Part shown: piece after piece, positions 9,262-64,000 of the stretch
Layout of the letters: each line of letters begins with the position of its first letter
How positions within the stretch are numbered: the first letter of the stretch is position 1
DNA from: Amphiscolops sp. MND2022
Lineage: Eukaryota
NCBI GenBank assembly: GCA_964187785.1
Contig: OZ076411.1
Location: 68,572,001 to 68,636,000, forward strand
Reading direction: 5' to 3'
Length of the DNA: 64,000 bases
Notes under the pieces: model-generated
Database searches by the model: none
The model's input: the letters and a program-made list of their open reading frames with translations, nothing else
Told to the model about the DNA's origin: nothing
Program-made: the position numbers and the translations under genes

Positions 9262-19902
<10,641 letters not shown>

Positions 19903-31949: not shown

Positions 31950-32099
31950 TTATAGAAAATAATAAAAAAGTTCACGCAGTTCGAACAAGGGAAGAGATCT
32001 TATTATAATAAAAAAACTATATCAGCTTTCGGCGAAGCGTTCTCAATGAATACATTAATCTGGCATTAACTTTTTGATCCTTAAAGAATTGAACGACAA

Positions 32100-32827
32100 A
32101 TGCCATCAACTTCTTCCGAAGACAAAGAAAAAAGTGGTTACATGCCTTGGGAGTTCAAGCGACAAAGACCAGACAAACTCCCAGGTTTGCAAGATGTCTG
32201 GAGACTACCGGAACTGCCGGAAGGTCAAACATGTTGCGGAGAAGGTCAAAAATGTTTCTACTTTTCCTGCTCGAAATGTGCCTCAAAATTGGCACATGAT
32301 GTTTTGAATCCCGGATATGAAACTAGCATGCAATATATTCCAAGAATATCCTGCATTCCGCGGCCTGAACCTTTCAAAGAAGACAATAAGTATCACGGGG
32401 AAATTTATGAGATGTATTTGAACTATTTTGCCCAAATGAACCCACCTTTGAAAGGTGTGGCGATCAACGGTTGGGGAAATACCAATGCTGCTAATCTCTT
32501 CCACAATATTGCAAACACGTTCAAGGGAACGGGGAAGTTTGAAAAGAGCAAAGACTTTGAAATTGATTGGATTATACTCAACGGCTCAAGCATCACCGTG
32601 ATTGAAGTGAAAGAAAAATCTGAAACTTCGAAAGGCAAAAAGAAAAACTTCGAAACCAAAGTAGATCAAATCAAGAAAGACAGAGTCATTATGCAACGCC
32701 TGATGGAGGTTACAGGCACCGAAAAGACACGTGTGAATTACGTAATTGCCTGTCCCAATGTATCAATCACGGAGGTGACAGATGGCAACTTCTTGGGAAG
32801 TCACTGTCAGTTCCTGAAAGACATTGT
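32100..32827 (+). CDS. NERD-like PD-(D/E)xK nuclease-domain protein, first coding exon (ORF open to 32846 if unspliced)
   Basis: 248-codon stop-free ORF with HGEIYEMYL...DFEIDWIILNGSSITVIEVK...DQIKK...VNYVIACPN, the E/D-x11-EVK/Q pattern of NERD (Pfam PF08378). Cys cluster CCGEGQKCFYFSCSKC. GTTAGT donor at 32828. Confidence 0.75.
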
Positions 32828-32946
32828 GTTAGTTGTTCAAAACTAGTCATTTGGGTTTGTTTCAAATATTCACTCATTAGCTTTCTAAACAAAGGCAAAG
32901 GTTAGCAGAATATCTAATCTCAAATACTTGAAATGTACTGTTTTCC

Positions 32947-34057: not shown

Positions 34058-34417
34058 AGACTTGTTTCTAATTCGAATACCTCCTAAAAATCTTGTAATA
34101 GATTTTATTCAATCTTTACCCACTTGACATTGACTCTTCTTTTCTTATCCTTGTCATTCAGATACTCCAAATTGAACATTGAGTCGACGGGTGCTAAATG
34201 ACAGAGAGTTAGGTAAACGTGATCTTGTATTTCTCAACTTTTTACACTTAGAAAAAGGCTCCCAAAACCATGGAACAAGAAAACAAAATTAGACGTTAAA
34301 TCATTTCTACATACTATGATATCATGAAAAGAAAAGAAGATTGAATGTCAAGTGGGTGAAGATTGAATAAAATCTATGACAAGATTTTCAGGAGGTGTTC
34401 GAAATAGAAACAAGTCT
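34058..34417. mobile_element. Foldback MITE (about 360 bp) with about 90-bp inverted arms
   Basis: 34058-34146 (AGACTTGTTTCTAATTCGAATACCTCC...) is the near reverse complement of 34327-34417 (...GGAGGTGTTCGAAATAGAAACAAGTCT). No clear TSD. Confidence 0.85.
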
Positions 34418-34868
34418 GAGTACGAACCTTATGTGCATATCACTGTATCATTATCTGTCATGCCCACTGGGAGCAAAAACTGAAAATTCTTTCAAAAAAG
34501 CTCTGGAATCCACCTTGCAGTTAATAACATCTCGAACTTATTGTTTTGAGTCATAGAACCATTATTCAAATGTTTCGTTAGGAGGGTTATCAAAAAAGGA
34601 AAAGAAGAAAATTCTTTATTTAGAAGCATCGGAATCAGAAAATTTGGTTGCAATGATTTATAAACTTTGCCATTATCAGAAGGCCGAGACCATAGGAGTA
34701 GTAGGTCAATCTAAAGATACTTTTAGACAACTTTTGTCTTCGTGGCCAATATAATGAAATTACTGCTTGTTTGAGTGTGCGCAATCAGTCACAAGCGAAA
34801 ACTTGTTACGTATTCAAGCAAACACCTTTCAATCACAGGAAAATGAGCATTCAAGTATTTCGTTGGAT

Positions 34869-35879
34869 GCGGGACAAAAGGGGGAAGTAAATAACTTCTA
34901 AATAAATAACTTCTAATTAATATAGTAAACAACTTCTAAATAAATAAGTTCTAAAATTATTTTAGTAAATAACTTCTAAATTGCAATGGCATCTAGTAAA
35001 TAACTTCCAAACAGCTATTTTGACGTAATTATTTCTATAACGTCGTTAGCTATGTTCACATACCCCTAGTGCCCTAAATGCAGGCCATATGGCCATGCCT
35101 CAATGTTGCTACTTGGCGAAGGGAGCGAAGCGACGGGACGAGCCATACAACAAATATGCTAATCTTTTCAAATAACAGTTTTCGGAATAATAGAACGGTA
35201 AGTTTATTTTCGGAATAATGGAACGGTTAATTTATTTTCGGAAGAATGAATAGCAATCTTTACTAGAATGATTTCAGAAGTTACCAGACGCAAATGCATT
35301 TTAGAAGTTATTTACTAATATAATTTTACAACTTATTTATTTAGAAGTTATTTACTAATATAATTTTAGAACTTATTTATTTAGAAGTTATTTACTAATA
35401 TAATTTTAGAACTTATTTATTTAGAAGTTATTTACGTGATCCGGACAAAACAGCCGATTTTCAAAACGGGACAAAACAGCCGATTTTCAAAACGGGAGAA
35501 AACAGCCGATTTTCAAAACGGAACAAAATGAGTGCTGTTACAGCCGATATGCATGGAACTTGGTTTATTTGAAGAGGTTCATATTTGTTGTATGGCTCGG
35601 TCGCTTCGCTCCCTTCGCCAAGTAACAACATTGAGGCATGGCCATATGGCACGTCGCTCCGCTTCGCTTCGCTCCTGCATTTAGGGCACTAGGAGTATGT
35701 GAACATAGCTGACTACGTTATAATAATTATTTTATTGACTGCTAATCTTAAGCATTGACAAAATCGGCGATTTTTATATTTACCAATCGGCGATTTTGTA
35801 CTGTTTTAAAATCTGCTCTTTTGTCCTATTTTGAAAATCGGCTGTTTTGTCCCGTTTAAAATCGGCTGTTTTGTCCCGC
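34869..35879. repeat. Composite element of three interleaved inverted-repeat pairs (A B A' C B' C')
   Basis: A 34886-35000 and A' 35295-35435 (AGTAAATAACTTCTAA arrays); B 35041-35175 and B' 35560-35717; C 35441-35530 and C' 35830-35879; outer GCGGGACAAAA...TTTTGTCCCGC. Confidence 0.85.
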
Positions 35880-42856: not shown

Positions 42857-43056
42857 NNNNNNNNNNNNNNNNNNNNNNNNNNNNNNNNNNNNNNNNNNNN
42901 NNNNNNNNNNNNNNNNNNNNNNNNNNNNNNNNNNNNNNNNNNNNNNNNNNNNNNNNNNNNNNNNNNNNNNNNNNNNNNNNNNNNNNNNNNNNNNNNNNNN
43001 NNNNNNNNNNNNNNNNNNNNNNNNNNNNNNNNNNNNNNNNNNNNNNNNNNNNNNNN
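42857..43056. other. Assembly gap (200 N)
   Basis: Run of exactly 200 N, typical of a fixed-length scaffolding spacer. Confidence 1.
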
Positions 43057-43159: not shown

Positions 43160-46100
43160 TTTTATCGATAAACATATAGCATTTAATTACTTTACAAACT
43201 TGGAATACTTTAAAACTTGGATTTTATGTCCATACAGTTTCAGTCCGTCCAGGCTGTTGTGTTATAAATGAATGACTTCAGGTCTTTAACATCGTCCTCA
43301 TTGTTGACGTCTTTCATTTCAACACAGTCTGGTCTTTTATGCAGGATACACTGGAAGAAGAAGTGATAGGGAGTTTCTTCTGATCTTTTACATTTGCAGA
43401 GGGGAGACACACATCTGCTGAGATTCCATTTGTAATCTGCAAGTTTCATGGTGTTTCCGATGAAGAATTCGCATAGCTTGTTTGCAACATAACTGTCACC
43501 GTAAGCCAAGGGTGATAATTTTCCGTTTGATGGTTGGCTCGATTGGAAATTTTTTAGGAAGCAGTTGTTGAAGGAGCTGTTTCATCTATTTCGCCACTGA
43601 CTTGTTATAAATGAATTGATTTCTGGAGGCGAATATTTCAGTCTTGTGTTACTTGGGTAAAGTCGGGAAAATCTTTTCAGGCTAGCTTCTAGGAAATTTG
43701 CTTTGCCCGAGGGTCTACAGAGAGCGGATTGATGACTGTAGAGATCTTGATCGTTATTTTCCTTTAATTTAATTGCAAATTTGATGGCAATACTTAGCTT
43801 GCTTGAATGGATGGAGATGGGCCGTGTTTGAAAACTGACCTAATGACGGAATTTTGAAAAGTCTGTAGTTTCTCCACATTTTTGTGATACCAAATTGGCG
43901 CTCCGTAGAGTAGTTGTGGTAAAATAATGGTTTTGTATAGGAATACTTGTGTAGTAATTGACAGTGAGTACTTCCTGGTGCATTTTCAGGCGATAAGATT
44001 CCAATTTCTTTTGGCTTTGGCAATGCTCTGCTCTGTTTGTTCACGGAAGTTTAATTTGTCGTCAGTTTGGATGCCTAGGGATCTAGTAGACGACTTTATT
44101 TTACAGAGATGCCCGTTCATTACAATAGCTGGTTTTAAAAAATTTCCTGCATTAAAAACTATTATCTCTGTTTTGGAACCATTGACCACCATCCGCCATT
44201 TCCGGCACCAATTTTGAACTTCGTTTGCAACTTCTTGTAATGTTGATTCGAGCGTACTTTGACGAGTACGGCTGTGTCGTCTGCGAATTTGAAGCGGGGA
44301 GAAAGCGTGCCGATGAAGTCATTTATGAACGAAATAAATAAGGTTGGTGAGAGAACGCTACCCTGGGGGAGACCACTTTCAATCTTAAAAGGCGGTGCGT
44401 TGATTTTTCTTACTTTGCTGAAGGATTCGCGAGAGAGCAAAAATGATTTAATAATGTTAAACATCCGACCCGTGATTCCCACTTGGTTGAATTTCAAGAG
44501 GAGGCCATCGACCCATACGCTGTCGGAGGCTTTCTCTAGGTCTATATTAAGTAACGCACCACAAGTTTTTGTTCTCAGGACTTCTTCAATTTCAAGTTGC
44601 ATTCGATAGAGAGATCGTACTGAGCTACGTTTCTCTCTAAACCCTTCTTGTTCCTCATCTATGAGTAGGTTATTCTCGAGAAATATTTTCAGTCAGTTAT
44701 TCAAAATTCTTTCGAGCAACTTACCGACATGGCTGGATATCGTAAGTGGTCTGTAGCTCGAGCTCGATGTATAGTTTGCCTTGCCAGCTTTTTTAATGAA
44801 GATTACCATCGATGTTTTCCAGGGCCAGTTTGCACTCCGGTAGCACTCATTGAAAAAATTTAACAGACTTTGCTTCATTTTGGGTCCAAAATGTTTCAAC
44901 ATAGACACATAAATGTTATCTGTGTCAAAAGCGGTCGACCGTGGAAGATTCTTGATTTCTTTTTCTGAATCAGGCATCGTTATTTTATCGTTGAGATGAA
45001 CATTTTCTACATCAGTGCCGAGGTTTTCGGCTGTAACGGTGACCGTTGCAAAGTGTTCCTGGTCAAAAACTTGTTCCTGAAGATGACGTCCTTCGAAGAA
45101 TGTTTGTTGCAGCTCTTCCGCTATTTCGGTATCAGTGATGGCCAGTGCTCCATTTGCCTTCTTCAGTGGGCCAATCGGACTCTCTTCTGGTTTAAAAATC
45201 GTTCTATAGTTTTGCCAAAAGGATTTTCCTCTGTTGTGATTTAGGAACGTAAGTTTTTCTTGCACCCATTCAGAGGCCTTTTCTGCTAGAAGTTTCTTGA
45301 AATCCATCTTGGCAGCTTCTAATTCATAACCGTTGCTATAATTCGAGTGAAACTTGAATTTCTTGCGCAGTTTCCTTAAATTTGAGCTTTTTTCAGTGAG
45401 CTCTTGACATCAGAACGGTTTGCTATGTCTGGAGGTGACTTTCAAGGGAATGCATCTGCTAGTTACTTCATGTATTGCAGTCCTTATTGTGTCCCATCTT
45501 GTGTCGAGATTATCAGCATCCAAGGTTTTGGCAAAAGATTCATCGCACTCCTCTTGTAGGGCACAGGACCACTTATTCCAGTCCGCTTTTTCGAGCCAAG
45601 GTTTAGTCGAACTTCTTATTTGTTGATCAGGGACTTGACTGGAAACAAAAACGGGATATAAAATACAATAAAAACGTTCCATTAGACCTGTTATGTCGGG
45701 AACAGAAAATTTTGTTGGGCTAAATTGTTGATACATCGGAAAATTTAACGATTTTGTTAAAAAAACGTCGTATTTGGCCTAAAAGACCAAATTTGGTGAG
45801 GGCGAAGCCTCGGAAAATTGTTACCAAGCTTTTAGATCAGCTTAAAACGTTGTTCCTGACATTAGTAGTATAAAATACTACTGCCAAGACGTTTTTTACC
45901 ATCCCCCAATACAAATTGAGACTTTAGCAGTTTGTTCTTTTGGATATACATAGACCTTAGTAGACGACCCCACAGATCTGAGAGTTATAACATCAAAACT
46001 AATAATTGAAACAACCCCACTCTCCTGAATAAAGCCATTACATCTTTTAAGGTTACTATTAGAACAATCCCGAACATCTGGGAGCCAAGAAATAAAAAGT

Positions 46101-47950: not shown

Positions 47951-48229
47951 ATTTAGCTGTCTTCAACTTCATTTTTCTGGAGGGAAGGAGTGAGTGAGCT
48001 ACGAGAAAAGCTAGAGAAAAGTTTCATCTTTCTGAAAAGAAGAAGTTAGAAAAGAGTGACAATCAATGAGATTGAGTGAGTGCGAGTACTTGATACCTTT
48101 GAATGAAGGGTCTTGGCACTCCAATGGCTTTCATGCCACCAATCTATTTGCGAACGAAGTAGAGGAATTGTAGATTTAGTACACGTGCTGAAACAGCAAT
48201 AGATGACGTAGTCACAAACAAGTTTTTAG

Positions 48230-51025
48230 CCAAAGCCACATCGGATAACATCTAACGCCGAACAAAACTTGCGAATCGCGCACGCCAGCCAACCAAATAC
48301 CTCTAAGGCAACTTCGGATAGTGCCGGCCTTGCCAATGCCACTCTCGGGAACCGTGACAGCGTGTGGCCTCCTCTGAATACCTCCGTGATTGCTTTGGGG
48401 GACTGGCCAAACTCAAATAGTGAACGAGCTACCAGCGCGAACACCACCGAATTGGTAGCAAACATGAATGTAGTCATGACTCTAAGAGAGATTACGCCAC
48501 AAGTGAGCGTAGGAGCGTACCCGCTGGGTTCCGGAGTTCCTGTGTTTAGTGCTAGTAGAAAAGTGTTCGCTGACACCACAAGAACTCCTTCAGGAAACCA
48601 ATTGGGAAAGCGGAAGACGAGAAAATAAGTGAATCTCCAGAACTATACCTTCACGACACCACCATTGCTAGGTCCCAGCACGATACGACTACAACGCACA
48701 GCAACGTTCCCAACATTCGGGCACAGATGGCGCAGCGTCTCCAGATTCGACCATTACAAGAAGCATTAAAGAGACTGAAGCCATAAAGGAAGACTTTGGA
48801 CGGAACATGGCACAGTTGAAACAAGTCCAGGCGAAGCTAACTCAAGAGAATTGCGACCATTCTCAGCGAGCTGAAGCCCTAACGAAGAAACTGGAGGAAC
48901 TGAAGAAAGGATTGATTATTATAAAAATGGAGGTACGCGTCAGCCAGGACAAGCTAGAATCGTCAAACGCGTCAATCAATGACCTAATTAGACAAAGATA
49001 AGGTCTGACCGAAAAGCGCATGTCAGAAATGACAACGATAATGGCGCAGAGGGATTGAGAAGCCGATGAACGTCTGAAGCTCATATCCGAAACGATGCAT
49101 CGCAGAGACTTAGATCTCGACAAAAGCATGGTGGACCTCATGTCTACAGTTCAAGATTTAAGCCTAGGAGTAAAAGCTGTAGTGGCGACAGTACCAAGTC
49201 GTCCTTCACCAGTGCCGATGGCACTAAACCCTGCGAACGTATCATTTACAAGCATATCTCCGCCTCAGCAACCTACCTATAAAACAATAATTCAACATCA
49301 AAACGGGACAAAACTCGACCAAACGAAACAGCCAAAGTTGCAACCACCTGCAACGTAGAAGACGATATCTGTAAAAGCTCAAGTCGCTACAGCTAGTCAC
49401 GCTAAGTTGCAACGATGTGAAATATCCGGCCCCCCTGCATTCAATCCCTAAGCTAGAGGTGCCTCAACAACTGGAGATTACTTCTCGGCGGCCAGTGGCC
49501 TAATGACAAGGGAAACGAGGACTTCAAAGGGAGACAGTGAGTACCAAACTGCTGTTTCGTCGAAACCCAGCTCGATGCACCCAACGTTTTTCACCAGCCA
49601 TGAGCAACTGATACCACTGGCCCCCAGTACGCAAAGAAAAACCACCTCGAAGAGGAATCTAAATCTAGAGACAGTAGAATGAAGTGCAAAAGACAACGTT
49701 ATGCACGCGATACACAGTGAAGCAATAGCTGAAGCAATAACCACCGCGATGTCCAAAGGTCTGGAACCGCTACTAGCGGCAAAAAAGCCAAAAACAAACC
49801 AACCAAAAACCACGGTACGCGTGATGGGATAGTAGATGGTTGGTTAGTGCTCTTGAAACGCTATCTGGAGAAAGCACACGTGAAGGATACTCTATTAGAC
49901 AGAGCATGGACCATCGTTGAATTCCTGGAAACGAGGCAAGAGACTACATTACGAACAAATCTGAGGCTGCAGGCGACAGGGACGAAAAAGTCTTTGCGGT
50001 GCTAGCGCGGCGATTTGGCACAGGATCCAACAAGGTCCAAATACAACAGCAGTTTCGTACGCGCAATCAGTCAAACGATGAAGACTACATGCGAGATCTC
50101 GACGCACTTGAAGGCTTGCGCAGCCAAGGTTTCACTATCGAGGAGGTGACAGTGAGGCGCTACGAGATCATGCAGAGATTCATCGAAGAGATTCGCAGCT
50201 TTTCGTTGAAGCAAAACCTCGCACTCATGTATGCACAAGAGCAATACGTGGATGCACCTCCAATAGTAGAAGCACTATGGTTCACGGTTCGGCAGTACTT
50301 GCGTATGCGTGACCCTACCCGCGCCGAGAATTTTCCAGCACCCCAGCAGCAGCAACAACCTTGTGGTACGAAAATAGCTGGTGAATGGGTTTGCCCTTCA
50401 AACCCTCGTGGCATGAACGATTTTGTACACGCAGTCTTAACAGAACAAGGAACAACGGCATTCCGCATTTTTGGTCGCATGGGCCACTTGGCATCTGAAT
50501 ACATGGTGCCTGAGAATGCAGCAACAGAAGAACAATTGAAAGCGGCGTGGTACGCAACATTGACGAATTCCGCGGACTTTGCTGATGCTGATGATCAGAT
50601 AGGGGTAATCTCAACTTTAGAAGAAGGAGGTCCCTCACGCCCGGTGGTCGTGACTTGTGGCGAAAAACAACTCCTGACAACGCTTGAAGCCCCAGCTCCC
50701 GACTGTACTGAAAATTTAATTTCTATTCACTTACTCTAGTCAGCAGAACAAAAAGCGCTTCCAAACCTCACATTGGCACAACTGAAGGAGGAGTTTTGTC
50801 GTAACACCAAACTTACGATAGCCTCGAGACCACTATCCCATTTCACTAGAAAAGAAGAGACCAAGCTAGCCCAGATACAAAAGGTCAAAACAATTGCGCC
50901 AGTCCCCATTGCAATCACGGTTGACGCTGTCGACATGAGGTTCGACCTGATTGTTGTCCTGGAAGGACACTTCCCGCAAGGAATATATTTGGGCAAGCAA
51001 GAACTGCGCTGCTACAACATCGGAG
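48230..51025 (+). mobile_element. Degenerate Ty3/Gypsy gag and aspartic protease region, truncated at about 51025
   Basis: Coiled-coil segments (48807-49100), capsid-like ORF 49999-50739 (QQQFRTRNQ..YEIMQRFIE), and protease C-terminal-like PIAITVDAVDMRFDLIVVLEGHFPQGIYLGKQELRCYNIG, after which similarity stops. Confidence 0.7.
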
Positions 51026-53859
51026 AAACCACCACCACCCGCACCTGCATCAGCTCCGCAAACTGAGGGTGCTGACCAGCTCTTTCCTGAGCCTGCTCGG
51101 TTAGCGGCTTCAACACAGGTACACACTGACAAGCCTTCAGAAACTACAGAAAATGAATACTTATCAGAGGGTAAGGCTAGTTTTGTGAGCAGTGCAAACA
51201 TGAATCACTACGAAATGTGTGGTAGCTCTAGCAGAATACCCACTTCACAACAACGACAAACGACTTCGAGGAAAATTAGCTTTGATCAATATGATTATTC
51301 GCGAGGAATACCGAATAGACATGAATTAACGAAAAGTGGTTATTACTCTTACCTTGATAAACATGCCACCAATTCGTCAACAGACACAAAACGTGATTTT
51401 CTCCTGAAATTGCTTCGAACACACGTGAAAATTTTGTAACCTCAAAAATTTCAGTTCCGCATAAAGAAATGCACCAGAAAAGCCTATACTAAAAACTAGA
51501 CACCCTGTTCGTTCAAGTAGAGGTAAACCAGATCCCTCGTGTGAAATTCACTCACCACATTTTCAGCTTAATTCAATCAACAGTCATAACGAAAGTATAA
51601 TAATGCCACAAAATGTAATAATTATAAAACTAAAATTTTTTGATAACATTTTTCCGAATTTTGGTTTTCGTTTCTCCGCCGGTTCAAAATTTGAGACGAG
51701 CATACAAAATGGAAAAGCTGTAACATTTGATGAAATGCCACAAATATTCTCGAACAGTTGCTACCAGGCTCGATTTTAGCCCATTTATCGCAAACAAGAA
51801 GAAACTGGATTTACTTGTTGATGTTGCAAGACAAAAATGACGTTCATTTGAACTATACCCATTTGAACAAATGCTTATGTAGAATGAAAAGTCAAATGAT
51901 AGCAAATTCCATCAATCATATTAAATTACAACAACTTGGTTATGAACACAATCTTGAATGGCGCCGTGTGCTTCTTAATATAGTTCGAGCTGACACTGAC
52001 ATTCAAGTTCAAATAGTAGTCAACTTTGTAATCATTAACCAGATAAAAGCCAACTACATAGTCCGTTCGAATCCACCATATGATGACGAACTTCGAAAAT
52101 GAGAGTTTCAAATGTGCACTGCACGCAAATTAGCATTCCAAGGAATGATGCAAAACTCAGAAATAACAGAAGCAAATAAAAACAGAAAATAAATGACATC
52201 CCGAGCCGAGACTTCTCACAAGAAATTGATGAATCTAGTTGACCACTTCATCAGCCTAATTAATACATAAACAAATACTGCGTTCGCTTATCGAACTGTC
52301 AATTAAAATTAAGAGCAATTCTAATTACGATTCCACATTGCTTGAAACTTGATAAATCTTGCTCAAAGAGTAGTATTTTTCACATGGATAGACTTTTTTG
52401 GGCTCTAGATATTCCCGAATTTGAGTGCCAAGTTCATGGCGACATCATTATTACACGAACTGACAACCCTTACGTGAAACCTCCACTTACTGTCCCAGTA
52501 CGTTACTGGCAGTCTTGACGACTCATCCACGCTGGCTTGTTTGTTTACCCGCACACTGACTGGTGGAATGCCGTTATACGGGTGGCAGAGTCCCACATAT
52601 CTTACGATGGCAGAGCACGTGATCTGCTAATTGGATGAGCATGCTCTGCCCTCGTCGCAGCGAATAGCAAACATATAATGAACAACTACCAAGACACATG
52701 TGTAACCATGACTCCAAATTTAGCTTCTTATACTCATGAAACATCGTTTTCAAATGACTCATCAGTTCAGAATGTAATGGTTGAAAACTTTTCTATTCTT
52801 GTTCTTTTTCTAATCTTGAAATTAAATAAGAAAAAAGCGATTATAATTATCAGTTCTCACAATTGATATACAATGCCATGATTATACGAGTAGTGAAAAC
52901 AGATGTGCCATTGAATAAGTGCATCTTTACCGTCTCTCAAACACACCTGGAAAGCTGCAAAATAGAGAAAAATTGCGGAACAAAAAATTTTTTTTCAAAA
53001 AAGACAATCAATCGAAAAAGTACCACGATGGGATGTTAGGGCTATATCTGTACTTTCAAATGGTGAAGGTTTGATGACATGCCATTGTTCACTAATAAAC
53101 GCTCTCACTTTGATTACCTGGTACTTGCTGTATTTCAGAGATTTTTTCTCAGAAAAGTTTCATCATTTTCGAAGAAATAATTTTACTGAAGATGAATCTC
53201 GAAATCGTGCCACAATATGATGATGAGGCAACCTTCTTTTTTTCGTTTAGTGAAGGTTCTGGGTTTCTAACACCGTCAGTAACGAAACGCCCTCACTTTG
53301 AAAAACACAACAACTTCCTTTGTCTGATGACACGATATTTTGAGTAAAAATTGTCTTTTTTGCTGCACTTTTGCTCCATTTTGGCAATGCAAACTTGGTG
53401 GCTATATCACCAGAGGCTGCCAGTTTGTTGAATTGCTAAAATGAACAACATATCCACTAGGGTTTATCACACGCAATAAAAAAAACAAAACAGCAAAGAG
53501 GTACCAGCGACAAAGTAGAACATGATTTGTATTGAATGCATATAGTTGTGCTGCTTACCTCCCTTATCATTTGAAATCTCTGAGCAAGGCTTTCCTCCAT
53601 GCTTCCAATCGAGCTATACAAAAAAAATCCAAAGACAAAGAAAAAGAGAAAAAACACCACGAACTAGACAAAAATAGAAAACCTTTTTTGGAAACTTCAA
53701 CTCTTTCAATCTTCCGCCTGACTCGTCCAAGGAAGGGCATTTTTCGTTTCCGCATCGGAACCTTCGGTACTTTTTGTACTTTTCGAAGCATTGGTAATTC
53801 GCCTTGATGAAACACTCCATGTGTTTCATCAAGGCAGTTTTCGACTTTCCCAATTTGTT

Positions 53860-55250
53860 TTTAGTTTTTGACAAGTTTGTTGTCTGTGCACATATTCAAT
53901 AAGGTAGTTTTTCTTTCGCTACCCAGACCAGTAGCGTAATATTGGATTACTTGCTCCCGTCTTAGCAAGGCACATTCCATTTTTCCCTCACAACCAGCCA
54001 CCATAGAAAGCCCTGAACTCGAGGTCACCACAGCATGGGCACATAAAACTGGCTGCACCATTAAGGGAAGAGGATCTGTAAAGTAGAACCAGACACGGTG
54101 TTTCACAGATTTTGGAGGGGGCTTCGACAAAAAACTTACTAGAAACAGAAGTATTTAATGACTCTATATACCTAAATACATTCCCCCGTTTTGCAATGAG
54201 CATCAACTTTCTTCCAACAGGTGTATGTGTGATACTATCATCTCCTCCGGTCTCAATATGTCGGGCAGTGAATCAGTTTCCGAATGCTATAATTCCATCC
54301 AATTTTGTAATAATCAAGGACTCAGGACTTGAATATTTTGCCAACCCTTGCACATTGAAGGACCAATCATTTGAATCTTTCGTGAATTCGGTTTCATGAT
54401 TCTTTATGGAATCATAGAACCTTTCTCGTTTACGTATTTTCCACTTTTGCAGCATCATATAGACTATACCATTAGCCGAACGGCAGTCGGGAATCGCCTT
54501 GACAAAGTTTTCGTTCATTTTAAATAACTGCTGATTTTTGATAAAGATAGGTTCGTTGACCCAAGTTTTGTCCACACAATACCCCAAACCATTTTGCTTC
54601 ATCTCGGACATCACATCTGTCCAAGACTCACATACACACAGTAGGGACAGGTTCCCAGCCCAAAGCAAGTAGAGATTTTTTTGTTGAGGATGTTCTCCAC
54701 ACCTAGATTTTGTGAACTTTTTGACAGCCTTGTTCCAATTAGTTCATGTCTCCAACCTTTTTTAGCATGTCTCACTTGCAGAGACACTTGCAATTGTTAC
54801 TTCATTCCTGAAACCTGCAATAAAGAAGTAGCACATTATTTTCTCTCGGAAAATGAAAACTATATGACAAACTATCGTTCACAATACTTGAGCTTCATCA
54901 AAATAATACCACTACAACGAATTCAAGACAAAAAAACACACTATGTGTTGAAGCTTCTGAGATGCGTTTGTCCATAAATTTAAGTAGGCGTTAACACTAA
55001 ATAAACATCATTCTTCTCTTCTAGGCACTTACCGCAGTCTTTTCACCAGCCATAAAAGCAGGGCGGGTGAGATCAGTACACACAACATGATCCAGAACCG
55101 ATGTTGATTTTCATCATTCGAGATGTCCTCCACAAATTTTGCAGGCCTAAATCACGGTCTGAATGCATACCTTCCCGAGAAACTTTCTGTCAGGACAACA
55201 TTGAATGGCAATGCCCCTGATTAGTTTTTGAACACACATTGTTTTCCGTT
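53860..55250 (-). pseudogene. Decayed JmjC (cupin 2-oxoglutarate/Fe dioxygenase) domain gene with a spliceosomal intron and a possible upstream Cys-rich finger
   Basis: Frame 54668-54130 reads GIIAFGN*FTARHIETGGDDSITHTPVGRKLMLIA (HxE, then G.K); after one frameshift LMVQPVLCAHAVVT..SMVAGCEG (distal His). This parallels JmjC T.FH.D.GG...G.K and IP.GW.HAV.T. Intron GTAAGT (55032)..TTGCAG (54815). Confidence 0.65.
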
Positions 55251-55489
55251 CTGAATATCTCAATACACGATACAGATTTAGCACAACAAAAAAACGAACG
55301 ACTAAATAAACAACCACCTTGTTGATTACAATTTTGTTCAGGGATCTTACCCTCACTTGCACTAACGGCTACCCAAACGAAATGGGCATCATACATTGAT
55401 GCTGAACCAGATTCCGGTGCAGTACTAGAAAATGGGATAATTTTCAACCATGTTACGAAGATTTTATTAGCCAAAAATTCAAAAACGTT

Positions 55490-57617
55490 GATTTCCTGGT
55501 CCTTTTTCCAAAGTTCGAAATGGACTTACGAGCCGAGTTACGCACCTATATCGACAAACTGGGCCAACTTTGGACCTCGCCAAGTTGGCGGTGCCATTTA
55601 GATTATTCTTCCGGTTTCAAGAAAAAAGACTTTGATTGATTGGCTCTTACACCAAGTTGACAACGAAGTAACCCTTGCAGAGTAAGAGCGTGTCGCTCTT
55701 CGCAATTACATTTCGGCCTTTTTGAACTCTGAATCTTCCGATACGGCCCAACTTTTTCGTCCACCAAGTGCAGCGCCGCTTGCAATGATGACGCTTGCAT
55801 CAGTAGGTTTATTTGGCTCTGGTATTGCTCTAGGGAGTGGATCATGCGAAATTACCGGAATTTTTGGATCCTGTCATGATCATGCTATGACGAATGCTGC
55901 AAATATTGAAAAACTCGCGGACTTTACAGAAGTCTTCACCGAAGACGTTTTCAAGCTAAGAACAAAATGTAATGAAAAGTTTTTCATGGTAACTTTGGAA
56001 CTGGCAGCAATAAAATCTGTTCAAAAAGAGATGATAGAAGTTCAAAACAGAAATTGGCAAATAATTGAAGATCATTTCGAAATATTTCGAGAACACATCC
56101 AAGTATTACGGGATTGCAATCAGTTACTTTTCTCAACACAGCAAGTCAACTTCAATTATGACACGATATCGTCCTTAATTGCTATCACATTTTCGAAGAG
56201 TAAAAGTTACCGTGGCGCACTTTATACTTATCGATTCAACATAATGAATTCGATTCAATTAATTTCGAACAATTTTTTACCAATGTCATTAGTTCCTAGA
56301 CAATCACTTTTAGCTATCCTCGAAAGCGTAGCGTCGGAGCAAGGTCAATCAAAAGACCGCCTATCGCTAGCTATTCTGATGTATGAAATAATGTCTCATT
56401 ATGAATCCCGACTGTTGAGGGACGTAATACCGACTGATCAAGGTTTAATTATGAGGATTGCGATTCCGTTAGCGTCTAAACAAACAAACAAACAGCATTT
56501 ACTGTTTTTTCCCGCACTTGCGGTCCCAATGCCTCAATCGGAACCTTACTTAGCAATTAAATGGAAATTGGAAGCGCCTTATTTAGCTATCTCAGAAGAT
56601 ATTATGGAAACTGCCTAGTTGACTGATTATGATCTTTCGCAATTTATAGGTTCCTCACGTTATCAAATTTGCCTAGACATGATTGCTACCGACAAAGGAC
56701 ATGGATATTGCTTTGCAACACTCTTTTTCAAAGGCAGCGATGAAGCCTTGCAAATTTGTGAAACGTAACAGATTCTTTTACCTGCAGCGGAAAAAGCCAA
56801 AAGTTTAGGGTACGGAGTTTGGCTTACAACTTCCGCAACGACAGCTTATACACTTATAGAAATTGACATACCTTCTACTACTTTCTTCGGAATAATCAAA
56901 TATCCAGAATGACGGATTTGTATTGTTACACTGGAATGTGGAAAACAACTGGTAACTCCTCACATCAAAATTTGCTCGGACCTTGGTACTTGTGAACAAC
57001 TTACAGTTAAACTTCCAGGTCCGTTGGCTCAGTTATGGAGCGAAATACCGGTGGTACAGGACATGCCTTATTTCTCTTCGAAGTCAGCCGCTGGTATCGC
57101 AAGGCTCAATCAAGTACTATAAAGCCTCTTCGGAGCCCCCATGCTCCGTGATCCCGAAAAATTTTTAGGAATAGCCCGCCCGATAACTTAAAAAAGACCC
57201 GATTGCGACCGTCTCTAACTAAAGAATTTGAATCACACTTGTCTATCAAACACTCTTTGTTCATTTATCATCGTTATAAGCATAAACACCACCTCGCTCC
57301 GTTGTGGTGTGGCCTTTTTTGCCCGAAAAACACCCTTGCTCCCGGTCCTCAGCAGCGCATACAGCGTTCGGCATCGACTACAACACTTTCCGGCGAAACT
57401 ACATTCAGGGGCGATATCGTTAAAAATGGATCTCGACAAGCTATTAATCGCGCTGATTCTCATCTTGCGATGTCACTACGAGATGGTGAAGAGACCAACC
57501 ACCATCCCACGTTACCATTGCCGTCTTACGCTGTTTCTCCAAACGCGACTGCCGAGAATAATCGTGCAACGTGTCCGCATGCACCGAGGCAGCCCTAGCA
57601 AGCGACTATTCTCCTAA
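55490..57617 (+). mobile_element. env: Degenerate envelope gene (class I fusion glycoprotein, baculovirus-F/errantivirus-env-like) of an LTR retroelement, 5'-truncated
   Basis: Fusion-peptide-like AAPLAMMTLASVGLFGSGIALG, heptad region, IAIPLAS..AVPMP motif, Cys-rich segment 56640-57000, hydrophobic TM-like stretch LSNTLCSFIIVISIN (about 57240-57290), AATAAA at about 57754. The longest open part is 298 aa. Confidence 0.82.
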
Positions 57618-58409
57618 ATACGTTACCTTCCTAACGATGGAAAAGGAACCAGATCATTTTTTTCTCGCTCGCTTATCATTTTTTAATTGTGTAACTGGAT
57701 TCATTCATCACTCATTACATCTGTAAGTGCATATTTAAATTTATAAAATACAAATAAAGCCTTTCGGGACTGGATAGCTGTGTGCTGGCAATCGAAAGAA
57801 TCCTTCTATTTAATCTCGACTCTTCTGGATCTCTTAACCGTTTGAATAAGAACCTTTTTTTTGGGTTGACATATGAATTCCTTTATCCACTACTCCCTGT
57901 TTTTCTCCACATATGGAATACGATTCTTCTTATCTGGGCGCTCCTTCCTTTTTTCTTCGCCTTCAATCAGTGGAACTACATCTGGCGGCAAAGCCACAGC
58001 AAGGAGGGTAGTGTAACATTCCAGAATGTGATTGATGAGGAAATATCAAACTGAAATAGGAAACTCAAGATAGCAACTTTCGCAATTAATCTTAATCAGA
58101 CAACAAACTGATGGTTATTAGTGAGATCCATAATCTTGACATTTATAGATAAAAACTGAACTTGAACCATTTATTATGATCGCCAGACCTAACTTCATTA
58201 GAGAGTTCTTTAAGAATTGGAGACTCAGAATAAAGTTGACTTCTAACTAACCTGCTAGTTTTTGAAACTCATCACAAGAACATAGTAGAAAACTTTTTCG
58301 ACTGACCGTATCTGTTATATCTGAAATTGTACAAGTTGAAACCCACTCTGGCAAAAGTGGGAGTCCTGTAAACAATCATATCATACAACACATCGGCCAC
58401 GTTTCAGCG

Positions 58410-60990
58410 ATCGATTACTAGAGCTCTTCAGAAGTTTCAACAACGAAATGGAAGTGTTATCATGGCGAACATTGACGACATAGTCATTGCAACAGAAACC
58501 ATCGAAGACCACTTGGTGAAAATCAGGGAAATGTTCGAGTGTCTCAAAGAGGCAGGCTTCAAAATGCGAGCTGAGAAATGTGACTTCATGCGCACCGAAA
58601 TCAAGTACCTCGGAGGAGCAGTTTCTGCTGGAGGCATAAAGCTAGACCCGGCAGCTGTTGGCAAGATCCAGGAATGGATGCCCCTAGGTATAAAGAGGAG
58701 CTGCAGAGGTTCCTCGGGTTCGCTAACTACTACCGAGAATTTATTTCCTTTCACGCTGCTAAAGAACAACCTATGCAGGAACTGTTGAGGAAAAACCAAC
58801 ACTTCTACTGGATGGAGAAACGTCAGGAATCGTTCGATTCAGTGAAACATGCCTTAGCCGAGGCCACAGCTTTGGCAACGCCAGATGCAGAAGGACGTTT
58901 TGTTTTGGATACGGATACCAGTGCAGTTACTATAGCCGGTATCCTACACCAGGAACAGGAATATAATGGAAAAACCATACTTCGTCGTGTTGTTTATGGT
59001 AGCAAATCACTGACTCGAACACAACTGAATTATGGCGCTAGAAATTGGAGATGTATGCAGTGTTTTATTTTATAGAAGAATTCCATTCGTACCTTGCAAG
59101 TCGAGAATTCACGCTGTACGTAGATAACCAGGCTCTCTCGTGCCTGAAGACGTACTCGTTGGATCAGGCCATGGTTGGACGCTGGATTGCACGCCTCGAC
59201 CAATATCACTTCAAGACTGTCCACCGACCAAGCACGCAACACAGAAATGCAGACGGTCTCAGCAAAAAGACAAATGATTACGTGTAAGGGAAAAAACTGT
59301 GGAGACCTTTCCGGAAGTGAGCAAAGGATTCAGTTCCTTGTCCCAGAACGACTACAAGAACCTACCCGCCGTACCATACATTGACAAAGATAGAAAGTTC
59401 ATTTCGAATCACCCGGAGCTTCCGGCGGAAGCTCGAGCACGACTTCCTCTGCTCTATATCTTAAGAAAGCGACCAAAGGGAGAATCGACCTCAGATCAGT
59501 CTTTGAATTCGATACCATTGTACCCAGAGGTGCAATGAATAACAACTCACAACTCCAACATCAACCGAAAACGACAGACCAAATTGTATCCTGAGTGTAA
59601 AAACCAAGGTGCCGCCGGCACGGCTTCTCGACACCACTAAACGCGAACCAGCGTTGCGTTGATTGCCTACGCAGTTTCAAGAGCAAGCTGACGTCCTCAG
59701 ACTAATTGGAACTGAACTGCATGAGCATCAATTGACAATGCATGGCCTGAAGGATCTACACCTAGCTCAAAATAGAGATCTACACCTTATAGCGTTGAAA
59801 AAGCTTATGAAGAACGAACCATTGGATGACTTCGTGTTCCCAGAGGACGTGAAGGACTTTGCCAAACGGTACTATCAGCAGAAGAAAGACTTACCGTTCC
59901 TGAACCACAATGACATTTTATGTATCAATTAATTCCCGCAGCAACGCTCAATGCACGTACGACCGTGTATGATCGTCATGCCCCAGCTGTACTAACACGA
60001 AATTTTGTACAGAGCGCATGATCAGTCAAGACACCAAGGCGTTGGCAAAGTTTTGGCAAGAATACAAGAGCGCCACTCCTGGCCAGGCATCAAGCGTGAT
60101 GTAGTAACCATATTAGACACTGCTTAAGGTGTCAACAGACAAAACATCCCGCTGGGAATCCTTGCTACCCTCTCCTAAGCATCAACAGTAGCAAGTTCAA
60201 TGACCTTGTGCATTTTGACAACGTCGGGAAATAATGGACACTGCTAGTCATCATCTACCTTTTCACCAAGTTTGCAGAGGCCATCCCATGTCCAAATGAT
60301 GAGTACGATGCCCAGACGACTGCAAAGCTCATCTTGAACAAGTGGTTCGCAAGACATGGCACTCCTGTCAGAATGCAGTCCACTAATGCCACAAATTTCA
60401 CTGCAGCAATTGCACAAGCCTCGCAGGTAACCAAGGTAACATCTACTCCAGCTCATTCGTGAGGCAATGATTTGATAGAACGCCAGAATTGAACATTACT
60501 AACATTGCGCCGAGTTTACACATCTCGCAGGATGCTGGATTGGGATGAGCAGATGGACGGAGTCGTGGGTGCCTTCAATTCAACAAGACATGCAACAACC
60601 GGATTTTCTCCATACATGCTCCAACATGGCGCAGAAAAATCCATTCCGCTCTCGTTCATATACCCAGAATTCGCAGCACGAGAGTTTGAGTCTAATGAAA
60701 AATTTGTAGAGCACCTTTTTGCTAGACAGCAAGAAGTCCAAGAGCTTGTTCGCATGAATACACATCCGGCGCAAGTACGACAAAAGCAGAAATTTGACAG
60801 ACATTTGAAAACAAATGCTCACGCCGTGGGTGACGCCGTTTGGGTTTTCTGTCACATGATTCCCAAGTGTGGTACCCGTAAACTTCTTCGTGACTGGCGT
60901 GGACCTCACAAGGTAACTGATGTATTACAAGATGGAAGACTATACTATATATTTTGGATACTGGCCAAAAAGTTCATTTCGAGAGCCTGA
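58410..60990 (+). mobile_element. pol: Ty3/Gypsy pol (C-terminal RT, RNase H, integrase), frameshifted, 5'-truncated
   Basis: MANIDDIVIAT..KCDF..IKYLG (RT). FVLDTD..YGSKSLTRTQLNY..EMYAV..VDNQAL..RWIARL..HRNADGLS (RNase H). AHDQ..HQG..WPG..C..C, FTKFAEAIP, FNSTRHATTGFSPY and WRGPHKV (integrase with GPY/F module). Confidence 0.95.
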
Positions 60991-61929
60991 AGAAACACGT
61001 GTCTGCACCGTGGGATTGGGCAACACATCAACCCTTCAGGTTGGACAAGATTGTAGCCATCATCGTAGATCCATACGGGGAAGACAAAATGAGGAGATAA
61101 CATCAGACATATCGCGCGACTCATTCCTTCCAGAACAACTGCCGGAGGCATCTTTCGAATTGGAACTAACCGCACCTGTCCCACACCGCACAATTCAAAC
61201 GCGTACCCAGACGGCTTTAGGACAAGGAATCCCACGTAGGCGGTCCAGTCACTTTGGATAGCCATCTGAGTCTGAATCTAACCACGAACCAATTGAACAA
61301 CCTGGGGAAGAAACACAGCAACCAGTTGTTTTTCCCGAACTAGATGATTTAGAACCATTGTTTTCGGACCAGGTGGAAATCTTGCCCGAACCAGTGAACA
61401 GTTTTTTACCTTCTCTAACAGGGACGTCAACACCATTGCTGTCAAATCCAATCCTGATCGACACACTGAGCAACTTCCCACTATTCAGTTCCCGAGCTGA
61501 TAGCTCAAAAGAACCAGAACCGCTGAAGAAGATAAGCCCCAGGAAAGAACTGAGGGGGTAGATCAACCACCTGGGCTAAGTCAAGAGACATCGCTCACGT
61601 CGGATAGAACTGTCCTTGGGAGAGGCAGCAGACCAAGAGGCAGACCTCCAGGTTGTAGAAGAGGAAGTACAACTTCATCGAGCAGGATAACTTCAAGAGC
61701 GAATAGACCATACACTCGATCAAGAGGTAGAATGAGAACCAGAGCTTGGTCTAGAACTCTAGAGCGTGGAATGACATTACCGAATTTACCAGAGAGTATG
61801 TCACCAGATCAGCAGGGTGCAGAGCAAACATCTCTTTCACAAGCACCGCCTTATCAGCTACGACGTAATAGAGCACCACGATAAAGGTGTGGAACCTGTG
61901 GTTCCCGTAAGTGTAGTTGCGTCAATCTA

Positions 61930-63313
61930 GTTGAAGTGAGAACACCGGACAAGCGATTGGCCCGGAGAGCGTATGCTCCTGCCCGGATGTTGGTTGATCC
62001 TGAAAAATCAGACGACTATGCACAACATAAAGTTCTAGCTGTTCAAGCCAAACACCAGGAGAACCCGTTAATACATCATGTAGTGATAACGACAGAAAAA
62101 ACGTACTCGAGTATAGAACCAGGAATTGTTCCGCCAATAGAGACCACGTTGAAGGCAATGCACGAAACATCCCCCACAGACTGTTCTGCCTACTGTTCGG
62201 GTGGACGTGGCACGACAAGAGCGGATTAGAGTTCACGTTACCCGCCATTATTCCCCCACTTCCACCGTCGTTGGTGTTTGGAAAAGTAGAGGCAGAAGAC
62301 ATGAAGCTGACTATGATAGCTGCATTACCGCGCACCAGCCATGGCAACAATATGGTGTGACTTCCACTCCTGGAGATGTATATCACCCAACCGCTGGTTG
62401 GTGGCAACTAATCAGCTCCCTAGACGAAACATCACCAGTAAATCCGGAGCTCTATTGATTTGTCTGGAGAATTTACGCACACTCGTAGAGTTCGATGACA
62501 CACTTTGTTTCCACTTAGCAGATATATACCGATACCGCGGAAAAATTTTCAGTCAACCTTGGTTACAACTACCAGCTATCATTTTCTGTCGTCAAGCCAA
62601 AATACGCTTTTTGGACCAACACTCATATACGTTTGAGAACCCCGTGACAGTGCTTGCAGCACTCTCCGTAGTTAAGGATTGGTCATGCACGAACATGGGA
62701 ATTAGACCACTACTCCGAACAGTGTGGAAGGATCGCAAGGCCATACTGGAACATCTTCCACCAAGTCAAGAGAATCAAAACACCTTCACTGGAAAATTGT
62801 AAACAACGCATCCAAAGTTCAAGCCGAACTACCTACCATAGATAACCTACGATGAAACTGATATCTTGCAAGCGCATGGTATCGTGGTAGTGTGCTATCC
62901 AGCGGGCCCTATCTCATACTCAGTGATGACGAGTTACGACACTCGGGAATACGGACTAGAAGAGATCTTTAGATTACGACCAGTCGTTGGAAAGGCGATG
63001 CACCTAGTCAAGTCACCAAATGCCCCATGGAACAATGACACCTTTCTGTTATTTACCAGAGCAACCAGCAAACATCCCATGCTGCATGACGTGATACATT
63101 GGTGTCATGTCAGATCTAATACAAAAGCTCACACAAGCTCATTCCACACAAGTTCGCTTTCTTATTTATGACCCCGAAAGATCAATCAACATACTACCAG
63201 CTTGGTATTCAATGTTGAGAGATCACTTCATCGAATCAAACATTGACATAATTCTCCACGATAGAGGCTATGTGTCAATCGCATCAGTACACGCATATGA
63301 CAGCGACCCGTAG
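61930..63313 (+). pseudogene. Post-integrase accessory ORF of the Gypsy element, frameshifted; contains one and possibly two OARD1/Poa1p-like macrodomain folds
   Basis: Overlapping ORFs 61936-62229, 62201-62458, 62341-62802, 62866-63171 and 63107-63313 join into one coding unit of about 450 aa. ITYDETDIL..CYPA..REYGLEEIF..VGKA..FLLFTRA..HP..W..MLRDHF..NIDIILHD parallels the OARD1 pattern. Confidence 0.55.
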
Positions 63314-63629
63314 CACAAATTGGATTGGGCACCAATAGTCCCCATAAATAGCCCTTCTAGGGGCAAATCGCCTTATTTTATGCGTGTGTCCTTTTACCTA
63401 ATAGTTGGACTGGTTCTTAAAGCGGATTTTTGCGTTTGTTTCACTGAAACTTTTTTAAAATGGACTGTACCAAACCTGAATTCATCTAAAGAATGTTTTA
63501 ACCCAAAATTGATGCTTGTTTATTTTCAGTTCAGTCCTGTCCTCTCGTTGCTACGCGACACTCCCAGTCACATATCATCTTTGCTGTCATTCAATAACAG
63601 TTGCAGTTTGAAGGTGCTACCATTGTTAC

Positions 63630-64000
63630 ATATGGACCAACCCACCCGCATTAAAATGCCACCACCAATTGCATCCAATTCACCGGCTAGCACCAACCAA
63701 GATAACCAGACTAGGGCTCCAGCAACGGCTGCGCCAGAACCTCCAGTGTCCTCGCTGCCTGTCGAGAATCCACACGACAGAGTAAGACAACTTGGTCATG
63801 TCCAATCCCAACTTCAATCCGGCGCTTCACTGACCCTCGTCACCGGAATGGCAAAACTCACTACCCAGATGTAATCGTTGGAAACGCACTCAGACTTCGT
63901 TCATTACTTTTCCTCGGGAATCGGATCCTTCCGCCGAACCGCGGAACTTAGCAATGGAGCTTGGCATGGACATGACCTCACTCACCATTTTGATGATCAT
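63630..64000 (+). pseudogene. Start of a further Pro/Thr/Ala-rich ORF of the Gypsy 3' region, running off the window
   Basis: MDQPTRIKMPPPIASNSPAST..QSQLQSG..M*SLETHSDFVHYFSSG: the frame continues after one stop. Product unknown. Confidence 0.4.

What the first reader, a model, noticed from the sequence alone, without database searches (positions are those of the whole stretch)
62240..63270. Tandem OARD1/Poa1p-like macrodomains as accessory cargo of the env-bearing Gypsy
Segment 62842-63262, joined over one frameshift near 63107, follows the OARD1/TARG1 pattern: ITY..D.L, C..AD, F/Y-G..E, G.A..L, Y/F-L.T, P, W..M...F, I.I.V. The preceding segment (ADYDSCITAHQPWQQYG..PGDV..LENL..FHLADIYRYRGKI..WLQL.AIIFC..KIRFLD) repeats the same spacing more weakly. 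The Gly-rich ADP-ribose-binding loops (GxGIA, GCG) are replaced, so these may be decoy or repurposed folds. Macrodomains are established viral countermeasures to PARP-mediated ADP-ribosylation and occur in some retroelements. A diverged tandem pair in a separate ORF beside env would be an undescribed counter-defence module.
Basis: partly seen in the sequence, partly recalled or inferred. Interest (0 to 1): 0.72.

Follow-up and report, generated by a model that had tools for sequence, protein, structure and literature searches.

The report
Retrotransposon integrase tail with twin pseudo-macrodomains
This broken jumping-gene copy belongs to a family whose DNA-inserting enzyme ends in two domains predicted to fold like ADP-ribose-removing enzymes, but their binding pockets are rebuilt, so they likely no longer handle ADP-ribose and probably serve as a grip on some other partner.

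Summary
The fold call is right; the gene model and probably the mechanism are not. Window 62262-63280 is a decayed copy of the C-terminal tail of a Ty3/Gypsy Gag-Pol. In natural relatives the tail is in frame with integrase (29 of 35 long tail-bearing proteins; single-frame Gag-Pol of 2974 and 3178 aa), so it is not a separate ORF. The ORF after it is an unrelated one, not env. AlphaFold models of natural relatives give two macro folds. M2 matches TARG1/OARD1 (TM 0.84, rmsd 2.2 A, Z 17.2). M1 matches Bt_1257/Poa1p (Z 12.4/10.9), is nested in a further unidentified domain, and is homologous to M2 (hhalign 94%). Lineages only 33-73% alike keep the tail and conserve it more than neighbouring linkers. 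M2 loses the Lys84/Asp125 dyad and carries Glu at the Gly123 position (11 of 12 lineage representatives), the substitution that abolishes ADP-ribose binding in TARG1. Its rebuilt pocket is nearly invariant. Most likely it is a non-catalytic binding or tethering module at the chromodomain-like position, rather than an ADP-ribose eraser. The ligand is unknown.

The parts
48066..51024 (+). Decayed gag (to just before the protease) of the same Gypsy family
   Evidence: tblastn of P0206 residues 6-1046 and P0196 residues 1-825, 48-81% identity, several frames
55326..57320 (+). env-like reading frame with stops; not shown to belong to the macro-bearing element
   Evidence: Seen by eye in translation; no Pfam family and no significant PDB sequence match
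58387..59290 (+). Decayed RT (C-terminal part) and RNase H
   Evidence: Pfam RT_RNaseH_2 E 2.4e-15; tblastn with P0005; P0005's best PDB match is Ty3 Gag-Pol, E 1.4e-106
59980..61000 (+). Decayed integrase (H2C2, core, GPY/F-like region); boundaries approximate
   Evidence: tblastn with P0005, 62-81%; Pfam Integrase_H2C2 and rve in P0206/P0196
61088..61884 (+). Acidic/Pro-rich then basic linker, with an AT-hook-like GRP motif at about 61636
   Evidence: GRP motif in 29 of 29 integrase+M2 proteins; Pfam AT_hook only at E 0.33-0.37, below cut-off
61885..61925 (+). Cys4 motif (CxxCxxxxCxC), putative zinc site
   Evidence: exact pattern in 26 of 29 integrase+M2 proteins; 55-58% identical between distant lineages
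62068..62261 (+). N-terminal half of an unidentified domain that is predicted to wrap around M1
   Evidence: Model of P0021, residues 17-79, pLDDT 76-95 per block; fold not identified
62262..62616 (+). M1: shortened TARG1/Poa1p-class macro fold lacking loop 1; frame changes near 62319 and 62446
   Evidence: VIA Z 12.4 to 2afc (rmsd 2.5, 114 aligned), 10.9 to Poa1p 6lfq; hhalign to M2; pLDDT 85-98
62617..62751 (+). C-terminal half of the wrap-around domain
   Evidence: Model of P0021, residues 200-244, pLDDT 71-95 per block; 10 positions of the inter-macro region at 90% or more across 10 representatives
62752..62841 (+). Flexible linker between the M1 module and M2; two stops in this copy (62800, 62839)
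   Evidence: pLDDT below 50 for P0021 250-266
62842..63280 (+). M2: TARG1-like macro fold with a rebuilt pocket; frame change near 63106
   Evidence: Foldseek TARG1 4j5s E 6.2e-9, TM 0.84, rmsd 2.2; VIA Z 17.2; profile E 0.0065
63281..63325 (+). End of Pol
   Evidence: tblastn of P0005 residues 1732-1804 reaches 63325
63632..64000 (+). Start of a second, non-env ORF (family of P0244, 968 aa, 210 member sequences)

Best explanation
The segment is the decayed end of a Gypsy Gag-Pol whose integrase carries, in frame, two domains predicted to have TARG1-class macro folds; they likely no longer bind or cleave ADP-ribose and likely act as a non-catalytic grip that tethers the integrase or particle to a host partner. 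Shown: in-frame fusion, homology of M1 and M2, conservation, and the pocket substitutions. Predicted: both folds and the nesting of M1. Inferred, step by step: (1) an ancestral element captured a TARG1/Poa1p-type macrodomain; (2) loop 2 changed to D-x-x-R, which both domains share, and the domain then duplicated; (3) M1 lost loop 1 and became part of a larger scaffold; (4) M2 kept an almost invariant but rebuilt pocket that now binds a different ligand (protein, chromatin mark or nucleic acid); (5) with the AT-hook-like and Cys4 motifs, the tail works as chromodomains do at this position in chromoviruses, guiding or anchoring integration.
For: In frame with integrase in 29 of 35 proteins with more than 560 aa upstream of M2; the other 6 start just past the integrase stretch used. 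This holds in two lineages whose tails are only about 40-45% alike. Between those lineages M1 is 45-47% and M2 38-43% identical, against 22-25%, 14-19% and 8% for the linker, basic region and spacer; integrase core 77%. In 12 M2 representatives (pairwise 33-73%), 32 positions are 90% conserved or more, among them pocket-region PAD 12/12, SA 12/12, the first-loop Asp 10/10, Arg at Lys84 11/12, and loop 2 Asp 12/12, Glu 11/12, Arg 12/12. In the gap-free HMMER alignment to TARG1 this Glu sits on the second Gly of R-I-G-C-G-L-D, and Ser/Pro/Gly sits on the Asp. TARG1 G123E no longer binds ADP-ribose, is inactive and is more stable, yet still binds RNA (PMC5928194, passages). Tandem macrodomains that bind nucleic acid and not ADP-ribose are known from SARS SUD (PMC2674928, abstract). 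Chromodomains at the C-terminus of Gypsy elements target chromatin (10.1101/2021.11.30.470311, passages).
Against: No ligand, binding test or insertion-site data exist here. About 400 aa of poorly conserved linker separate the integrase from the macro module, so the protease may cut the tail off (untested). M2 keeps the Asp that in other macrodomains binds adenine (placement recalled; one search printed only TARG1 chain residues 50-142). SCO6735 is active without the Lys84/Asp125 dyad (PMC9411070, passages), so loss of the dyad alone does not prove inactivity. The G123 equivalence rests on a sequence alignment at E 0.0065 plus overall fold similarity; a residue-level superposition could not be viewed. 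The domains are not basic (K+R roughly equals or is below D+E in most representatives), which weakens direct nucleic-acid binding. The AT-hook match is below Pfam's cut-off.
Confidence: 0.45

Rival explanations
1. Counter-defence decoy. The tail, possibly released by the protease, is an inactive macrodomain pair that binds and blocks a host ADP-ribosyltransferase, a macrodomain-reading sensor or another restriction factor.
For: The fold derives from an ADP-ribose eraser class. Inactive TARG1, DarG and SCO6735 mutants inhibit the transferase DarT by interaction (PMC9411070, passage). Many RNA viruses carry macro folds. The invariant rebuilt pocket suits a protein partner.
Against: A decoy for ADP-ribosylated substrates needs an open pocket, and the G123E-like Glu predicts a blocked one. 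The position and companion motifs fit a DNA/chromatin-facing role. No sign of rapid surface change was tested.
Confidence: 0.25
2. Particle or RNA role. The tail is a structural or RNA-binding module inside the virus-like particle (packaging, primer handling, nuclear import), independent of target choice.
For: TARG1 G123E still binds RNA; SUD macrodomains bind G-quadruplexes; a Cys4 motif and an Arg-rich stretch precede the module.
Against: The macro surfaces are not basic overall. Gag already has zinc knuckles, and a Pol tail is usually made in lower amounts than Gag, although here Gag and Pol share one frame.
Confidence: 0.15
3. Active eraser with an altered mechanism. M2 still binds ADP-ribose and hydrolyses it using the conserved Arg/Asp/Glu residues, as the first reader's counter-PARP idea would need.
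For: M2 keeps the first-loop Asp, and 32 near-invariant positions include the pocket region; the model is very close to TARG1 (TM 0.84); SCO6735 works without the dyad.
Against: Both loop-2 glycines are replaced by acidic residues that would clash with the pyrophosphate, one of them the tested binding-dead substitution. Loop-1 glycines are also replaced (placement recalled). M1 lacks loop 1 altogether.
Confidence: 0.1
4. Neutral passenger. A captured gene fragment decaying at the end of Pol.
For: The window copy itself is broken throughout.
Against: Open frames and invariant motifs persist across lineages down to 33% (M2) and 16% (M1) identity, and the macro domains are about twice as conserved as the linkers. 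The breaks in this copy hit RT and integrase as well.
Confidence: 0.03

Closest known systems
Human TARG1/OARD1/C6orf130 (PDB 4J5S, 2LGR), ALC1-like macrodomain class
   Same: M2 fold: TM 0.84, rmsd 2.2 A, Z 17.2; best sequence-profile match.
   Different: 16% identity; Arg for Lys84, Ser/Pro/Gly for Asp125, Asp and Glu for the loop-2 glycines; tandem, and fused behind an integrase.
Bt_1257 (2AFC), yeast Poa1p (6LFQ), DarG macrodomain (5M3I)
   Same: Best structural matches of M1 (Z 12.4, 10.9) and next-best matches of M2 (Z 15.9-12.3).
   Different: M1 is about 115 aa, lacks the loop-1 segment, and is predicted to be nested inside another domain.
SARS-unique domain (SUD-N/SUD-M; Mac2/Mac3 of nsp3)
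   Same: Tandem macrodomains inside a viral polyprotein that fail to bind ADP-ribose and bind other ligands (PMC2674928, abstract). A functional analogue.
   Different: Only Z 7.2-8.2 to SUD chains, far below TARG1, so a different macro class and an independent origin. SUD works through surface lysines, whereas these domains are not basic.
Chromovirus integrases (Gypsy with a C-terminal chromodomain, e.g. MAGGY)
   Same: A captured reader fold at the C-terminus of Gypsy Pol (10.1101/2021.11.30.470311, passages).
   Different: Macro instead of chromo fold, two copies, a 400-aa linker with AT-hook-like and Cys4 motifs; targeting not shown here.
Macro domains of ray-finned fish epsilon-like endogenous retroviruses
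   Same: A macro domain captured by a reverse-transcribing element (PMC4977317, one passage citing Basta et al. 2009, which was not read).
   Different: There an additional ORF of Retroviridae; here an in-frame Pol tail of a Ty3/Gypsy element, tandem and pocket-substituted.

Membership tests
Macrodomain superfamily, TARG1/ALC1-like class | Alpha/beta/alpha macro fold, closest to TARG1/DarG/Poa1p | tested here: met
   M2; M1; predicted models of natural relatives
Macrodomain superfamily, TARG1/ALC1-like class | Reaches a Pfam Macro (PF01661) threshold | tested here: not met
   No Macro hit for P0001, the 24 members of A1, or 8 divergent tail proteins. The Atlas gave a cluster with 14% PF01661 members at score 0.90, a lead only.
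TARG1-type hydrolase | Lys84/Asp125 catalytic dyad | tested here: not met
   M2: Arg 11/12 (Lys 1/12) at Lys84; Ser/Pro/Gly at Asp125. M1: Ser/Ala and Gly. Dyad definition from PMC9411070.
TARG1-type hydrolase | Gly-rich phosphate-binding loop 2 (G-C-G-L) | tested here: not met
   M2 D-x-E-R, M1 D/E-x-aromatic-R
TARG1-type hydrolase | Gly-rich loop 1 (includes G43, I44) | tested here: not met
   M2 has S-A with no glycine in 12 of 12; M1 lacks the segment. The loop's place in TARG1 is recalled, not printed by a call.
TARG1-type hydrolase | Adenine-binding Asp after the first strand | tested here: inconclusive
   M2 has an invariant Asp there (10/10), M1 does not; equivalence to TARG1 is recalled
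TARG1-type hydrolase | Binds and hydrolyses ADP-ribose conjugates | not testable with these tools
   Needs biochemistry
Ty3/Gypsy LTR retrotransposon | Gag-PR-RT-RNase H-integrase order and Ty3-like RT | tested here: met
   Pfam on P0206/P0196; Ty3 Gag-Pol is the best PDB match
Ty3/Gypsy LTR retrotransposon | Paired LTRs and target-site duplication | tested here: inconclusive
   The element runs off the window end; no repeat of 57600-58400 elsewhere in the window
env-bearing Gypsy (errantivirus-like) | env ORF downstream of pol in the same element | tested here: inconclusive
   The ORF directly after pol is of another family; what follows it lies beyond the window; no DNA context for relatives
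Chromovirus-type targeting integrase | C-terminal chromodomain | tested here: not met
   No chromo family among the Pfam hits of full-length Gag-Pol; the position holds macro folds
Chromovirus-type targeting integrase | Tail directs insertion-site choice | not testable with these tools
   No genome held

The most novel reading that the evidence does not exclude
A Gypsy lineage has turned an ADP-ribose eraser into a new reader. A naturally binding-dead TARG1-like pocket, fixed across deeply diverged families, recognises a non-ADP-ribose chromatin or host-protein ligand and steers integration: 'macroviruses' parallel to chromoviruses, with a second macrodomain nested in an unnamed fold.
Probability: 0.3. 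Interest if true: 0.8.

Novelty: new variant of a known kind. Interest (0 to 1): 0.58.

Why it matters
Integrase tails decide where LTR elements insert, and few reader folds are known there. A conserved pseudo-macrodomain pair would add a new one. It would also be a natural case of a macro pocket rebuilt for another ligand, carrying the substitution that labs use to kill TARG1 binding. It is invisible to Pfam, so similar tails may be missed in other annotated retrotransposons. The domains are small and predicted to fold well, so the first test (ADP-ribose binding or not) is cheap.

Tried and rejected
No whole genome is held, so copy number, dN/dS and insertion sites could not be computed. The search for related loci found no relative in viral, metagenome or prokaryote contigs. 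No sequencing run was listed, which is no evidence either way. Single-sequence searches missed the fold: Pfam, PDB sequences with P0001 or the shallow alignment A1, PHROGs, phage tblastn. Only profiles with divergent lineages reached TARG1 (E 0.32 with A3; 0.0065 with A4). The all-protein HMMER search gave 330 hits at E 0.001 or better; only the best 150 were shown, and the ones fetched (18) were family members, so the remaining 180 were not seen. The wrap-around domain could not be folded alone and was barely tested in the fold lists. An SGNH-like look of the downstream ORF is by eye only: Pfam, PDB sequences and the Atlas gave no support. The env-like frame got no Pfam or PDB support. A six-frame Pfam scan of 51000-54899 found no pol remnant. 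Literature: 0 papers held macrodomain + LTR retrotransposon + Gypsy; 2 held macro domain + retrotransposon + integrase (passages of both read); 42 held macrodomain + retrotransposon (40 listed, titles and abstract starts only, none on this); searches listed nothing relevant beyond PMC4977317. PMC13524379, PMC12440569 and PMC5408684 have no occurrence of 'macro' in the main text. Supplements were not read, most subscription papers and Repbase are outside the library, so absence from print is not established. No complex prediction was run, as no specific binding pair is claimed.

Full report
What is in the window. Read with X at the frame change near 63105, 62842-63309 gives a 155-residue domain. 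It has no Pfam or PDB sequence match on its own but finds 44 natural proteins at 53-76% identity among 128 candidates. Four of the 44 carry integrase families and end in this domain. P0005 (1804 aa) is colinear with the window from 58387 to 63325 through about a dozen frame segments. Cluster members P0196 (2974 aa) and P0206 (3178 aa) are single frames running from Gag through protease, RT, RNase H and integrase to the tail, and Ty3 Gag-Pol is the best solved relative. Of 263 stored proteins, 147 hold M2; 35 of these have more than 560 residues upstream of it, and 29 of those 35 hold integrase sequence in the same frame. The 'separate ORF' is therefore an effect of decay in this copy, whose RT and integrase are equally broken.

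Relation to env. The same family's gag lies at 48066-51024, and about 500 residues of protease and early RT are missing. The env-like frame (55326-57320) sits in that gap, upstream of the macros. Its identity rests on features seen by eye; Pfam and PDB sequence searches gave nothing significant. The ORF that follows Pol (63632 on) belongs to a 968-aa family with 210 member sequences whose only match in the window is at 63632-64000. Whether complete elements carry env further downstream could not be tested.

Fold. The all-protein profile search returned 330 relatives, among them lineages 27-42% identical to the first set. With these, the M2 profile ranks human TARG1 first among 177,635 PDB sequences (E 0.0065; the next, unrelated hit is at 0.1). 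A model of natural P0021 with 74 sequences has mean pLDDT 81.3. M2 matches TARG1 at E 6.2e-9, TM 0.84, rmsd 2.2 A and Z 17.2, ahead of DarG 15.9, Bt_1257 13.7 and Poa1p 12.3. M1 and M2 profiles align over 110 columns at probability 94.3 and score 51.6, against a maximum of 21.0 in 100 shuffles and 14.1 reversed. In the better model, the confident N-terminal module spans residues 13-249: strands and a helix before M1 (17-79), and a strand and two helices after it (200-244). I read this as a discontinuous domain into which M1 is inserted, from the order of elements and the confidence; coordinates could not be inspected and its fold was not identified.

Constraint. Between the window's lineage (P0005) and a distant one (P0254, P0256, P0260), identity is 77% in the integrase core, 63-64% in the integrase C-terminal region, 22-25% in the acidic linker, 14-19% in the basic region, 55-58% at the Cys4 motif, 8% in the spacer, 45-47% in M1, 25-27% between the macros and 38-43% in M2 (proteins that only partly cover a region are left out of these ranges). 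Among 12 hand-picked M2 representatives (pairwise 33-73%), 32 positions are conserved at 90% or more; among 8 M1 representatives (16-71%), 8 are. This is protein-level evidence of purifying selection, not dN/dS.

Pocket. The HMMER alignment to TARG1 has no gap from the strand bearing Lys84 to the end. It puts Arg on Lys84 and D-x-E-R-(S/P/G) on G-C-G-L-D, so Glu sits on Gly123 and the catalytic Asp125 is lost; numbering is from PMC9411070 and PMC5928194 plus my recall of the TARG1 sequence. Counts among the 12 representatives: Arg 11, Asp 12, Glu 11, Arg 12; among the 39-45 rows of A5 covering these sites: 41 of 45, 38 of 41, 37 of 41, 37 of 39. TARG1 G123E is folded and more stable, does not bind ADP-ribose, is inactive, and still binds RNA (PMC5928194, passages). 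M1 shares D-x-x-R in loop 2, has an aromatic residue at the Gly123 position, Ser/Ala at Lys84, and lacks the loop-1 segment. The shared D-x-x-R suggests that the loop changed before a duplication (inference). Against a fully dead site: M2 keeps an invariant Asp after the first strand (10 of 10), and SCO6735 shows that this class can be active without the dyad (PMC9411070, passages). The residues that replace the ancestral ones are themselves nearly invariant, which argues for a pocket rebuilt for a new job rather than left to decay.

How it most likely works. The tail follows the integrase C-terminal region, after a long variable linker that keeps a GRP AT-hook-like motif (29 of 29) and a Cys4 motif (26 of 29). 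This is where chromoviruses carry a chromatin-reading chromodomain (10.1101/2021.11.30.470311, passages). I put 0.45 on a non-catalytic tethering module, 0.25 on a decoy that blocks a host factor, 0.15 on an RNA or particle role, 0.10 on an active eraser and 0.03 on a neutral passenger. The fusion and substitutions are shown, the folds are predicted, and the ligand and role are inferred. Net charge does not favour nucleic-acid binding, and cleavage from integrase is untested.

Comparison and novelty. Macro domains in reverse-transcribing elements are known from fish endogenous retroviruses, as additional ORFs (PMC4977317, passage). Tandem macrodomains that do not bind ADP-ribose are known from SARS SUD (PMC2674928, abstract), but these are structurally distant (Z 7-8). 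Searches found no description of a macro pair at a Gypsy integrase C-terminus; most results were seen as listings only, and the library lacks most subscription papers. I rate it a new variant of a known kind, interest 0.58.

Noticed in passing
window 63632-64000; P0244 (968 aa): A second ORF follows Pol; its family has 210 member sequences. It has a long low-complexity N-terminus, and a region near residues 480-660 looks by eye like an SGNH/GDSL fold. Pfam, PDB sequences and the Atlas gave no support. GDSL ORF3s are known in rotifer LTR elements (PMC5408684, passages).
   Followed up: partly
window 62068-62261 and 62617-62751 (P0021 17-79, 200-244): A confidently predicted discontinuous domain appears to wrap around M1; its fold was not identified.
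   Followed up: partly
window 55326-57320: env-like frame with stops: a basic-site-like stretch, then a Gly-rich hydrophobic segment and a long helical region, by eye; no Pfam or PDB support. It sits between the gag and RT fragments of the macro-bearing family.
   Followed up: partly
window 58000-58385: A purine-rich run followed by TG..., resembling a polypurine tract and LTR start, lies just before the RT fragment; no second copy in the window.
   Followed up: partly
window 51024-58387: About 500 residues of protease and early RT of the family are missing across this 7.3-kb gap; 51000-54899 has no Pfam match in six frames.
   Followed up: partly
P0206/P0196 Gag: Gag and Pol share one frame of about 3000-3200 aa, with no frameshift; the capsid region has a weak PNMA match (E 0.05-0.13).
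   Followed up: no
window 32085-32843: 253-aa frame with a NERD nuclease-related domain (E 1.2e-4, just above cut-off), near inverted repeats at 34058-35878.
   Followed up: no
window 44165-45409, minus strand: Fragment of another reverse transcriptase (RVT_1 E 1.1e-18), non-LTR-like by eye.
   Followed up: no
window 19099-19899: C2H2 zinc-finger exon, Sp/KLF-like by eye, consistent with an animal host.
   Followed up: no
window 31372-31718; 42857-43056: A head-to-tail duplication of about 173 bp at 83% identity, and a 200-base assembly gap.
   Followed up: no
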